From: Nannocystis sp. SCPEA4
GTDB taxonomy: Bacteria; Myxococcota_A; Polyangia; Nannocystales; Nannocystaceae
Direction: 5' to 3'
Assembly (NCBI RefSeq): GCF_026626685.1
Contig: NZ_JAPNJX010000001.1
Span: forward strand, 204,752-268,751
Length of the DNA: 64,000 nt
Shown: positions 14,321 through 20,072 of the stretch, one piece after another
Numbering within the stretch: the first letter of the stretch is position 1
Layout: each line of letters opens with the position of its first letter
Made by a program: the position numbers and the translations under genes
The notes under the pieces: generated by a model
What the model saw: the letters and a program-made list of their open reading frames with translations, nothing else
Databases searched by the model: none
What the model was told of the DNA's origin: nothing

Positions 14321-15904
14321 TCACTTCTTCGCGCCGACGTTCTTGCGCTGGAGCTCGATCGCCTCGACGTCGCCGACCGCCTCCGCCTCCGCCAGCAGCC
14401 AGCGGAACATCGGGCCCGACAGGCCGTACTCCTTGCGGTCGTTCCACAGCCACACCGCGTAGCCGCACACGTCGCGGTGGACCTGCGGGAACAGCAGGTA
14501 GCGCAGCGGCATCCCGCCGAGCAGGACCGCCTCCTCGTAGCGGCGGCGGAACTGGTTCCACGCCCGCGACTCCTCGGCCGGCGGCAGGCGGCGGTCGGCG
14601 GCCGTGCGCGCGCGCAGCTCCTCGGAGCCGGTCTCGACCCCGGTCAGCAGCTCCGCGCGCAGCTCCTCGACCGCCAGCGCGGCCGTCGGCAGCACCTCGG
14701 CCTCGAACGTGGCCAGCGGCAGCCTGGCCGCGCGCGCCAGCTCGGCCAGCTCGCGCGCGACGGCGCGACGGATGCCGGCCAGCGCCTCCTCGGCGCGCGT
14801 CTGCGTCGTCAGCACCGCGACCCGCTGCCGCATGCGCCGCTCCGCGTGCGGCCACGCGTCCTCCCACGCGCGGCAGAGCTCCTGCATGCGCGTGGCCGAC
14901 AGCCGCTGCTCGAGCTCCGTGCCGGCCTGCCCGGGCGTCTTCGGCCGCAGCGCCAGCCACGTCGCGTGCAGCGCCTGGGCGTGGGCCACCGGGTCGTCGG
15001 CGTGGGCGGCAGGGTCGATCAGCGGCACCGTCGGCGCCGGCTGCGGTGGCGGCGGCTTGCGCTGGTGCAGCACCCGCGGGGCCGCGCGCGCCTCGTCGAG
15101 CAGCGGTCGCATGACCTTTCGGCCAGGTGCCAACAGCCAGGAGACCCACAGCCCGAAGTCGGTCGGGTTGGGCTCGCCGGGCAGCGCCTCGCCGCGGATC
15201 CGCGCGGCGGCGCGGGCGAGGAAGCGGGTGTACGCGGTCGCCTGGCCCGGCAGCACGCCGCGGCGGATCACCGTGATCCAGTCGCCGCGGCTGGCCGCGT
15301 CGGCCACCAGCCAGTCGTTGGCGGCCCGGCGCGCGGCCGCGGGCGCGAAGTCGGGGTCGAACGCGTCGGCGCCGGCGAGGATGTCGCGCGCTCCGTCGCG
15401 ATCGCCGCGGCTGGCCGCCAGCAGCCCGGTCGCCACGATCCCGCCGAGCCCGGTCTTGGCGTTCGCGTGGATCTTGCCTTCGAGCCAGGTCGCGAGCCCC
15501 GCGTCGTGCGGGCGGTGCAGCAGCGCCAGCGCGGCCGCCACGACCTTGCCGCCCTCGCGGTCGCGCTCCCAGCTCGAGCGGGCCAGCAGAGACAACCAGT
15601 AGCTGGCGCGCACCAGGCCGGCGGCGATCACCGTGCGGCGCAGCACCGGCCACACGATCCCGCCGATCAGGTCGAGCAGCGCCACCATCCACCCGCCGAG
15701 CGCGACCAACAGGATGAGGAAACCGAGCACGCTGGCGATCGCGTGCGCCTGCTCGACGACGATCGGCACCTCGGCGAGGGCTCGCATCGCGACGACCGAT
15801 ACCACGATCGCGGCCGCCGTCCGCGGCGCGCGCCGGCCCAGCACGAACACCGCCACGAGCACCGCTACCGCGGCGTGGACCCCCGAACTCACGACCGCCT
15901 CCAT
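14321..15904 (-). CDS. integral membrane protein, unknown function (last gene of the Hsp70 operon)
   Basis: ATG 15904 (MEAVVSSGVHAAVAVLVAVFVL) overlaps the upstream gene end by 16 nt. There are about 4 N-terminal TM helices, then a helical soluble domain. Confidence 0.65.
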   Translation of the reverse strand: MEAVVSSGVHAAVAVLVAVFVLGRRAPRTAAAIVVSVVAMRALAEVPIVVEQAHAIASVLGFLILLVALGGWMVALLDLIGGIVWPVLRRTVIAAGLVRASYWLSLLARSSWERDREGGKVVAAALALLHRPHDAGLATWLEGKIHANAKTGLGGIVATGLLAASRGDRDGARDILAGADAFDPDFAPAAARRAANDWLVADAASRGDWITVIRRGVLPGQATAYTRFLARAAARIRGEALPGEPNPTDFGLWVSWLLAPGRKVMRPLLDEARAAPRVLHQRKPPPPQPAPTVPLIDPAAHADDPVAHAQALHATWLALRPKTPGQAGTELEQRLSATRMQELCRAWEDAWPHAERRMRQRVAVLTTQTRAEEALAGIRRAVARELAELARAARLPLATFEAEVLPTAALAVEELRAELLTGVETGSEELRARTAADRRLPPAEESRAWNQFRRRYEEAVLLGGMPLRYLLFPQVHRDVCGYAVWLWNDRKEYGLSGPMFRWLLAEAEAVGDVEAIELQRKNVGAKK

Positions 15905-16257
15905 CCCAGCGCCGCGAACGCCTCGGCGAGCGGTGCCGGTCCTGGACCCTTCGTCTCGGGCGCAGGCGGCGGCTTCGGCGGCGCCGCGGGCGGCGGCAAG
16001 CTGGCCCAAAATTCATGTCCCAGGCGTTTCTCGTGGTCGCGCAGGGCCGCCATCGCCGCGCGCACCTTGTCCTCGGTGCGCGCGCGCGGCCCGAGCGGGC
16101 TCATGTAGGTCGCGGCCGACTTGAGCTTGAGCCCGAGCATGCCGAGCAGCTTCTGGCCCTCGCGCTCGACGTCGACCCGGGTGCAGTCGGGCCGCAGCCC
16201 GAGCACGTGGAACGGGTTGTCGGCCAGCGGCTCGTATTCGTCTGACTTTTGCGACAT
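15889..16257 (-). CDS. J-domain-like protein lacking the HPD motif
   Basis: 122 aa. NPFHVLGLRPDCTRVDVEREGQKLLGML ... RAAMAALRDHEKRLGHEFW resembles J-domain helices I-III, but no HPD tripeptide is present. A Pro-rich tail follows. Confidence 0.6.
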   Translation of the reverse strand: MSQKSDEYEPLADNPFHVLGLRPDCTRVDVEREGQKLLGMLGLKLKSAATYMSPLGPRARTEDKVRAAMAALRDHEKRLGHEFWASLPPPAAPPKPPPAPETKGPGPAPLAEAFAALGWRRS

Positions 16258-16305
16258 GGCGCTTCCCCCAGGTCCTTTACGACATGGCCGAACAGACAGT
16301 TCAGC
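16250..16305. repeat. 14-bp-phased array, 4 units, intercistronic
   Basis: Cores are CATG 16255 (contains the J-like start codon), CAGG 16269, CATG 16283 and CAGT 16297. It lies between the Hsp70 stop (16301) and the J-like start (16257). Confidence 0.7.
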
Positions 16306-19266: not shown

Positions 19267-19338
19267 AGGAACATGCTCCATAGGACATGTCCGCGAATGC
19301 TCGTGGCGATAAGGTCATGTCTCATACGGCATGTCCCG
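19267..19338. repeat. 14-bp-phased units (two phased pairs), intercistronic
   Basis: CATG at 19272/19286 and at 19316/19330, plus an off-phase AATG at 19296. The core GGACATGTCC occurs at 19283-19292. Confidence 0.7.
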
Positions 19339-19343
19339 AGATA

Positions 19344-20072
19344 TCACGGCCCGACCTCGGGCGGACTCCCGCCGAGCAGGTCGGCGAGGCGCCGCAGCAG
19401 CCGCTGGTGGCGGCGCGAGATCGTGCTGACGCTGATCGCCAGATCGGCCGCGACCTCGGTCATCGTCAGCCCGCGCACGTACACCGCGTCGATCAGGGCC
19501 CGCTCGTCGGCGTCGCAGCGCTCGACGAGCGCGCGCAGCGACAGCCGGACCTCGGGGCCGAACGCGTCGTCGTCGTCGCTGGCGAACAGGCGCGACAGCA
19601 CCGCCGCCGCCGTGACCTCGCGGACCAGCTCGGCCGCGTCGCCGAAGCGCTCGCCGATCCGGCGCGGGTCGTCGCCGGGGCGCAGCCGGATCTCCGACAA
19701 CTCCTGCGTCACCTCGAGCGTGTTGAGCAGCCGGCGCGCGCGCTTGTGGTCGGGGAAGGCGTTGCGGGCGGCGTCGATCATCGCCCCGCGCACCCGGTAG
19801 AACGCGTAGGCCGCGAACGGCACCCCGGCGGCCGGGTCGTAGCGCAGGGCCGCGCGCGCCAGCGCCTCGTAGCCGGCGCTCTCGCACTCGTCGGGCGCGA
19901 TCCCCACGGTGCGCCGCAGGCTGCGCGCGATGCCCGGGACCCGCGGCGCGAACGCCTCGACGCGCGCGCGCTGCTCCGGCGACAGGCCCGGCCCGCGCGC
20001 CGGCGCGGCGTCGGGTGCGAACGAGGCGTCCTCTTCGACGCCGCAGACGACCTCATCGTGAGGCTGACTCAT
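19344..20072 (-). CDS. sigma-70 family RNA polymerase sigma factor
   Basis: 242 aa. Region 2 (GYEALARAALRYDPAAGVPFAAYAFYRVRGAMIDAAR) and a region 4 HTH (GLTMTEVAADLAISVSTISRRHQRLLRRL) are present. Confidence 0.85.
   Translation of the reverse strand: MSQPHDEVVCGVEEDASFAPDAAPARGPGLSPEQRARVEAFAPRVPGIARSLRRTVGIAPDECESAGYEALARAALRYDPAAGVPFAAYAFYRVRGAMIDAARNAFPDHKRARRLLNTLEVTQELSEIRLRPGDDPRRIGERFGDAAELVREVTAAAVLSRLFASDDDDAFGPEVRLSLRALVERCDADERALIDAVYVRGLTMTEVAADLAISVSTISRRHQRLLRRLADLLGGSPPEVGP

What the first reader, a model, noticed from the sequence alone, without database searches (positions are those of the whole stretch)
14321..20072. Five-gene operon: dedicated sigma factor, tail-anchored protein, atypical Hsp70, HPD-less J-like protein and polytopic membrane protein
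All five genes are on the minus strand with short gaps or overlaps.
- sigma-70 family factor (19344-20072)
- 155-aa protein with a C-terminal TM anchor (18786-19253)
- 822-aa Hsp70 with canonical ATPase motifs, an inserted domain and a long helical C-terminal extension (16301-18769)
- 122-aa protein resembling a J-domain but lacking the HPD tripeptide needed to stimulate Hsp70 ATPase (15889-16257)
- 527-aa membrane protein that overlaps the J-like gene by 16 nt (14321-15904)

This looks like a self-contained, membrane-associated, non-canonical Hsp70 machine with its own transcription factor, and possibly an anti-sigma in the tail-anchored protein. A PilZ (c-di-GMP) gene sits just upstream.
Basis: partly seen in the sequence, partly recalled or inferred. 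Interest (0 to 1): 0.6.

Follow-up and report, generated by a model that had tools for sequence, protein, structure and literature searches.

The report
Myxobacterial Hsp70 with HPD-less J partner
The locus holds a three-gene cassette conserved across myxobacteria (an atypical Hsp70, a private J-like partner that never has the HPD motif, and a membrane-anchored helical scaffold), and only Nannocystis and its relatives carry a PilZ, sigma-factor and lipoprotein trio just upstream of it.

Summary
All five ORFs are real, at the stated coordinates, tightly packed on the minus strand. The window is Nannocystis radixulma.

**Not one five-gene unit.** Hsp70, J-like and third gene are adjacent in 72 of 82 homologous loci across Myxococcota. 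The sigma factor lies upstream in only 15 loci, all Nannocystis relatives. There it belongs to a block of PilZ, sigma and the "tail-anchored" gene.

**J-like protein.**
- It is a J-domain fold by AlphaFold2 and Foldseek.
- None of 120 homologs has HPD. A conserved beta-hairpin (Y..P.G) replaces that loop.

**Hsp70.**
- All catalytic residues are kept.
- J-contact and allosteric residues are changed family-wide: R167E, E217R, D481G, and the D211 loop is deleted.
- This suggests a private, rewired Hsp70/J interface.

**The other two proteins.**
- The "polytopic" protein is an N-terminal membrane anchor plus about 430 aa of TPR-like helices.
- The "tail-anchored" protein is a lipoprotein with a C-terminal transmembrane helix. 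It weakly resembles PrgK/YscJ, so an anti-sigma role is unlikely.

**Verdict.** This is a new variant of specialised Hsp70 systems, and its function is unknown. My best guess is a membrane-docked chaperone insulated from DnaJ, which I rate as moderately interesting.

The parts
20101..20499 (-). PilZ-domain gene (c-di-GMP receptor type). Its start codon was not determined. It is the first gene of the Nannocystaceae-specific upstream block.
   Evidence: Pfam PF07238 E=4.9e-10. The RFHPR and DLSLGG motifs are read directly from the translation. It lies upstream of the sigma gene in Nannocystis-clade loci.
19344..20072 (-). Sigma-70 family factor, 242 aa. It is closest to FliA/WhiG but scores below that subfamily's cut-off.
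   Evidence: Pfam Sigma70_r2 E=4e-8 and Sigma70_r4 E=1e-7. NCBIfam TIGR02937 scores 67 bits against a cut-off of 42.9, while FliA_WhiG scores 60.5 bits against a cut-off of 189.6. It lies upstream of the Hsp70 in only 15 of 82 loci.
19272..19330 (.). Array of the palindromic motif GGACATGTCC with 14-bp spacing. It sits between the sigma gene and the next gene and overlaps the 5' end of the 179-aa ORF.
18786..19325 (-). It has a lipoprotein signal with an invariant Cys, a periplasmic domain of about 120 aa, a C-terminal transmembrane helix and a short Arg-rich cytoplasmic tail. It weakly resembles PrgK/YscJ. The start codon in Nannocystis is uncertain (19325, 19274 or 19253).
   Evidence: Family alignment A5 shows invariant C29 and a conserved GDPxLVPTRxGER motif. 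The only PDB profile hits are PrgK, at E about 0.9, aligned over its second ring-building domain and transmembrane helix. There is no Pfam match.
16301..18769 (-). Atypical Hsp70, 822 aa.

- **Nucleotide-binding domain:** aa 1 to about 365 (nt about 17675-18769).
- **Insert:** about 100 aa, aa about 375-470 (nt about 17360-17647).
- **Divergent linker and SBD-beta:** aa about 478-592 (nt about 16994-17338).
- **Helical region:** aa 593-822 (nt 16304-16993), ending in the invariant tail [FHY][DE]SG[VL]R-COOH.
   Evidence: - Pfam HSP70 E=6e-78 over the nucleotide-binding domain only.
- PDB hits are DnaK nucleotide-binding domains at about 1e-63.
- The C-terminal profile A1 hits DnaK SBD-beta at E=0.05-0.2.
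- Alignment to E. coli DnaK shows the catalytic residues invariant, with R167E, E217R and D481G in 60 of 60 sequences and residues 209-212 deleted.
- The C-terminal tail is conserved.
15889..16257 (-). J-like protein, 122 aa. It has a J-domain four-helix fold in which the HPD loop is replaced by a conserved beta-hairpin (Y51..P54.G56...R60). A Pro-rich linker follows, then a conserved C-terminal PWxxALxALGWR motif.
   Evidence: - Alignment A2.
- 0 of 120 homologs have HPD and 119 of 120 have Y..P.G.
- The AlphaFold2 core has pLDDT 89-97.
- Foldseek PDB hits are almost all J domains, with probability up to 0.99.
- hhalign against a J-domain alignment gives E=0.0015.
- Pfam DnaJ matches only 4 of 32 members, at E>=0.09.
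14321..15904 (-). Third core protein (M3), 527 aa. It has an N-terminal membrane anchor in about the first 95 aa, with a variable number of transmembrane helices. The rest is an all-alpha, TPR-like domain of about 430 aa, probably cytoplasmic, with a strongly conserved C-terminal block. It belongs to no Pfam family.
   Evidence: - Alignment A4.
- AlphaFold2 mean pLDDT 84, all helices.
- The N-terminal hydrophobic segments are conserved in all lineages.
- The family has 726 cluster representatives, uniformly about 500 aa.
- No Pfam hit.
14219..14275 (.). Second array of the GGACATGTCC-type motif (14-bp period), immediately after the last gene of the operon.

Best explanation
The conserved unit is a three-gene cassette specific to Myxococcota.

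**1. The Hsp70 derivative.** It can still bind and hydrolyse ATP and keeps a divergent substrate-binding beta-domain. The surface that canonical J-domains use has been rewritten.

**2. The J-like protein.** It is a small private partner with a J-domain fold but no HPD. In place of the HPD loop it presents a conserved beta-hairpin.

**3. The scaffold.** This is an inner-membrane-anchored, TPR-like helical protein.

**Inferred mechanism.**
- The J-like protein binds only this Hsp70, through a co-evolved and partly charge-reversed interface.
- This would insulate the pair from the many other DnaK and DnaJ paralogs in a myxobacterial cell.
- The membrane scaffold would dock the pair at the cytoplasmic face of the inner membrane. 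Docking may use the invariant C-terminal tails of the Hsp70 (SGVR-COOH) and of the J-like protein (LGWR).
- There the module would remodel one specific membrane or envelope client rather than fold proteins in general.

**The upstream block.** In Nannocystaceae only, the cassette sits directly downstream of a PilZ c-di-GMP receptor, a FliA-like sigma factor and a PrgK-like lipoprotein with a C-terminal transmembrane helix. This block probably supplies lineage-specific regulation and an envelope-side partner.

**Shown:** gene content, conservation pattern, folds and residue changes.

**Inferred:** who binds whom, the membrane docking and the type of client.
For: **Conservation.**
- J-like is adjacent to the Hsp70 in 75 of 82 loci, and J-like plus M3 in 72 of 82. 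Three more loci are cut by contig ends.
- The median gap from Hsp70 stop to J-like start is about 2 nt.
- The loci span Nannocystaceae, Polyangiaceae/Sorangium, Archangium/Cystobacter, Kofleriaceae, Haliangium and Enhygromyxa.
- Independent metagenome contigs show the same order.

**Hsp70.**
- D8, T11-N13, K70, P143, E171, D194, T199 and D201 are invariant in 60 of 60 sequences.
- R167 becomes E, E217 becomes R and D481 becomes G in 60 of 60.
- Also changed are R151 to S/T, D148 to L and Q378 to Y/F.
- DnaK residues 209-212, which include D211, are deleted in 60 of 60.
- These are the DnaK residues that contact the J-domain or clamp the domains together, according to the review PMC8215388.
- SBD-beta is retained: the profile hits DnaK SBD-beta at E=0.05.

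**J-like protein.**
- The AlphaFold2 core is confident, with a hairpin at residues 50-59.
- The top Foldseek hits are J domains.
- No HPD in 120 homologs, and Y..P.G in 119 of 120.
- Anchored on the LG(L/V) motif, DnaJ R22 and K26 correspond to invariant E31 and to Q35.

**No canonical partners nearby.** No canonical J-domain gene or GrpE gene was found in the 64-kb window.

**M3.**
- The N-terminal hydrophobic anchor is conserved in all lineages.
- A basic RRTVIAAGLVR stretch follows it.
- The fold is all-alpha and TPR-like.
- The C-terminal tails of the Hsp70 and of the J-like protein are conserved.

**Upstream block.**
- It is present in 15 of 82 genome loci.
- It is present on all 16 informative metagenome contigs found through the lipoprotein.
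Against: - No interaction was tested, because no multimer prediction tool was available.
- The J-domain assignment rests on a predicted structure with weak Foldseek E-values (0.09-1) and an hhalign probability of only 16%.
- The charge-swap argument uses invariant positions, so there is no covariation statistic behind it.
- The loss of R151, D148 and D481 could equally mean that interdomain allostery is gone, so that no J-type stimulation happens at all.
- The TPR-like similarity of M3 is generic, and no Pfam TPR repeat is detected.
- The topology of M3, with its large domain in the cytoplasm, is inferred only from the positive-inside rule.
- Three loci (L017, L043, L061) have the Hsp70 without J-like or M3 within 8 kb.
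- No client, phenotype or expression data exist for this family.
Confidence: 0.55

Rival explanations
1. All five genes form one self-contained machine, the sigma factor is its dedicated transcription factor, and the small membrane protein is the matching anti-sigma factor.
For: - In the Nannocystis clade the genes are collinear, with 16-43 nt gaps or overlaps.
- The order PilZ, sigma, small protein, Hsp70, J-like, M3 persists even where sigma and the small protein are only 36-50% identical to the window's.
- Every lipoprotein homolog with enough flanking sequence is followed by this Hsp70.
Against: - Sigma and the small protein are absent upstream in 67 of 82 loci, which carry unrelated genes there.
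- In L015 and L019 the small gene is inverted, and in L016 other ORFs separate sigma from the Hsp70.
- The small protein has a lipoprotein signal with an invariant Cys and only about 12 cytoplasmic residues, so it has no room for an anti-sigma domain.
- It has no Pfam anti-sigma hit, and its only PDB hits are PrgK.
- A repeat array sits between the sigma gene and the small gene and may separate two transcripts.
Confidence: 0.15
2. The Hsp70 derivative no longer cycles as a J-stimulated chaperone. It would act as an ATP-bound holdase or scaffold, or as an Hsp110-like exchange factor for canonical DnaK. The J-like protein would then be a purely structural or inhibitory subunit, like Pam16.
For: - Allosteric residues R151, D148 and D481 and the J contacts R167 and Q378 are replaced in the whole family, and the linker region is altered or interrupted by a 100-aa insert.
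- The size (about 820 aa), the insert and the long helical region recall Hsp110.
- The FEBS J 2026 review argues that many myxobacterial DnaK derivatives have lost J and substrate activation.
Against: - Every catalytic residue and the P143/K70/E171 relay are invariant.
- SBD-beta and its hydrophobic pocket are strongly conserved within the family.
- The replacement residues are themselves invariant, for example E167 and R217. That points to a new constrained interface rather than decay.
- The hairpin replacing HPD is conserved in 119 of 120 homologs.
Confidence: 0.25
3. The cassette is a mobile anti-phage or conflict system built around an Hsp70-type ATPase.
For: Several unannotated proteins sit next to an ATPase. 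Myxobacteria carry many such systems (my own knowledge).
Against: - There are no PADLOC hits for the Hsp70, J-like, M3 or the small protein.
- There is no effector-type domain.
- The cassette occurs across the phylum in different but lineage-consistent chromosomal neighbourhoods, with sequence identity tracking taxonomy.
- The GC content is uniform with the flanks.
Confidence: 0.03

Closest known systems
E. coli HscC with its J-proteins DjlB and DjlC (a specialised Hsp70 acting at the inner membrane)
   Same: - It is recruited to the membrane.
- The loop containing D211 near the J-binding site is deleted, and part of lobe I of the nucleotide-binding domain is deleted (PMC8215388).
- Its physiological clients are unknown.
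   Different: - DjlB and DjlC keep HPD and are themselves tail-anchored. Here the J-like protein is soluble and lacks HPD, and a separate TPR-like protein carries the membrane anchor.
- HscC is 550-580 aa. This Hsp70 is about 820 aa, with a 100-aa insert and a 230-aa helical region.
- NCBIfam gives no HscC-type assignment.
Pam16/Tim16 with Pam18 and Tim44 in the mitochondrial import motor
   Same: - It includes a J-like protein that has the J fold but no HPD.
- It works with an Hsp70 that a separate scaffold holds at a membrane (my own knowledge).
   Different: - Pam16 works by pairing with the HPD-bearing Pam18. No HPD J-protein is encoded in this cassette or in the 64-kb window.
- No translocon component is evident here.
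- There is no detectable sequence relationship.
Eukaryotic TPR co-chaperones and receptors that bind the Hsp70 EEVD tail (Hop, CHIP, Tom70)
   Same: An all-helical, TPR-like protein, membrane-anchored as Tom70 is, is paired with an Hsp70 that has an invariant C-terminal peptide.
   Different: - The tail here is [DE]SG[VL]R, not EEVD.
- The tail-to-TPR contact is my hypothesis and was not tested.
Myxococcus xanthus StkA (with StkB and StkC) and the other myxobacterial DnaK derivatives
   Same: They are non-essential Hsp70 paralogs of the same phylum with specialised, non-housekeeping roles. Reviews list them as functionally unexplained (PMC4319316, PMC8265645, PMC13580251).
   Different: - StkA is 540 aa and is followed by an SCP2-like protein and an 89-aa protein, so it is a different cassette.
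- I could not establish whether M. xanthus has an ortholog of this family. MXAN_5323 (925 aa) is a candidate but was not checked.
PrgK/YscJ/FliF inner-membrane ring lipoproteins (compared with the small upstream protein only)
   Same: - It has an N-terminal lipobox Cys, a periplasmic domain with a pattern my own reading takes as alpha-beta-beta-alpha-beta, a C-terminal transmembrane helix and a basic tail.
- PrgK is the only PDB hit of the family profile.
   Different: - The hit is weak (E about 0.9).
- There is one domain rather than two.
- Pfam YscJ_FliF is not detected.
- No other secretion or flagellar genes are nearby.

Membership tests
Hsp70 (Pfam PF00012; NCBIfam DnaK/HscA) | Actin-like nucleotide-binding domain matching the family model | tested here: met
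   PF00012 E=6.4e-78 over aa 1-362. DnaK nucleotide-binding domains in the PDB match at about 1e-63. Identity to E. coli DnaK over this domain is 36%.
Hsp70 (Pfam PF00012; NCBIfam DnaK/HscA) | Catalytic and phosphate-binding residues (D8, T11-N13, K70, E171, D194, T199, D201) | tested here: met
   All are invariant in 60 of 60 family members.
Hsp70 (Pfam PF00012; NCBIfam DnaK/HscA) | Substrate-binding beta-sandwich after a conserved hydrophobic linker | tested here: inconclusive
   The profile of the C-terminal region hits DnaK SBD-beta only at E=0.05-0.2. The linker is ambiguous: YPAMSSD or GLTISD could each be its equivalent, and a 100-aa insert lies between them.
Hsp70 (Pfam PF00012; NCBIfam DnaK/HscA) | Score above the DnaK or HscA equivalog cut-off | tested here: not met
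   DnaK scores 269.6 bits against a cut-off of 648. HscA scores 237.6 against a cut-off of 708.55.
Hsp70 (Pfam PF00012; NCBIfam DnaK/HscA) | Canonical J-domain contact and clamp residues (R167, Q378, E217, D211, D481) | tested here: not met
   The family has E, Y/F, R, a deletion and G at these positions respectively, in 60 of 60 sequences for four of the five. The contact list comes from PMC8215388.
J-domain (Pfam PF00226) | Four-helix J fold | tested here: met
   The AlphaFold2 model has helices at 15-19, 27-42, 62-73 and 75-85, with pLDDT 89-97. About 45 of the top 50 Foldseek PDB hits are J domains, with TM-score on the target of 0.5-0.67. This rests on a prediction and not on an experimental structure.
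J-domain (Pfam PF00226) | Sequence match to the family model | tested here: not met
   There is no hit for the window protein. Only 4 of 32 homologs match, at E>=0.09.
J-domain (Pfam PF00226) | His-Pro-Asp tripeptide between helices II and III | tested here: not met
   HPD occurs in 0 of 120 database homologs and 0 of 29 locus ORFs. A conserved Y..P.G hairpin replaces it.
Sigma-70 family, FliA/WhiG subfamily | Regions 2 and 4 present, and score above the subfamily cut-off | tested here: inconclusive
   Regions 2 and 4 are found, and TIGR02937 passes its cut-off. FliA_WhiG scores 60.5 bits against a cut-off of 189.6, so the subfamily criterion is not met.
Membrane anti-sigma factor | Cytoplasmic anti-sigma domain N-terminal to a transmembrane helix | tested here: not met
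   The N-terminus is a lipoprotein signal with an invariant Cys. The only transmembrane helix is C-terminal and is followed by about 12 residues. No Pfam domain is found.
YscJ/PrgK/FliF ring lipoproteins | Lipobox, ring-building domain, C-terminal transmembrane helix and a match to the family model | tested here: inconclusive
   The topology is met. PrgK is the only PDB hit but at E about 0.9. Pfam PF01514 is not detected.
PilZ c-di-GMP receptor | PilZ domain with RxxxR and D/NxSxxG motifs | tested here: met
   PF07238 E=4.9e-10. RFHPR and DLSLGG are present in the translation.
TPR / helical-repeat scaffold (third protein) | Tandem helix-turn-helix repeats matching TPR models | tested here: inconclusive
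Known anti-phage defence systems (PADLOC) | Match to any defence protein model | tested here: not met
   Four of the five proteins have no hits. The sigma factor has only weak helix-turn-helix matches.

The most novel reading that the evidence does not exclude
The J-like protein would be a working activator or coupler of its Hsp70 despite lacking HPD. It would use the conserved beta-hairpin and a charge-reversed interface (Hsp70 E167 and R217 against J-like E31 and R60). That would give a naturally orthogonal Hsp70/J pair.

The membrane TPR-like protein would recognise the invariant SGVR-COOH tail of the Hsp70. This would be a bacterial counterpart of the EEVD-to-TPR docking so far regarded as eukaryotic.
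Probability: 0.2. Interest if true: 0.8.

Novelty: new variant of a known kind. Interest (0 to 1): 0.58.

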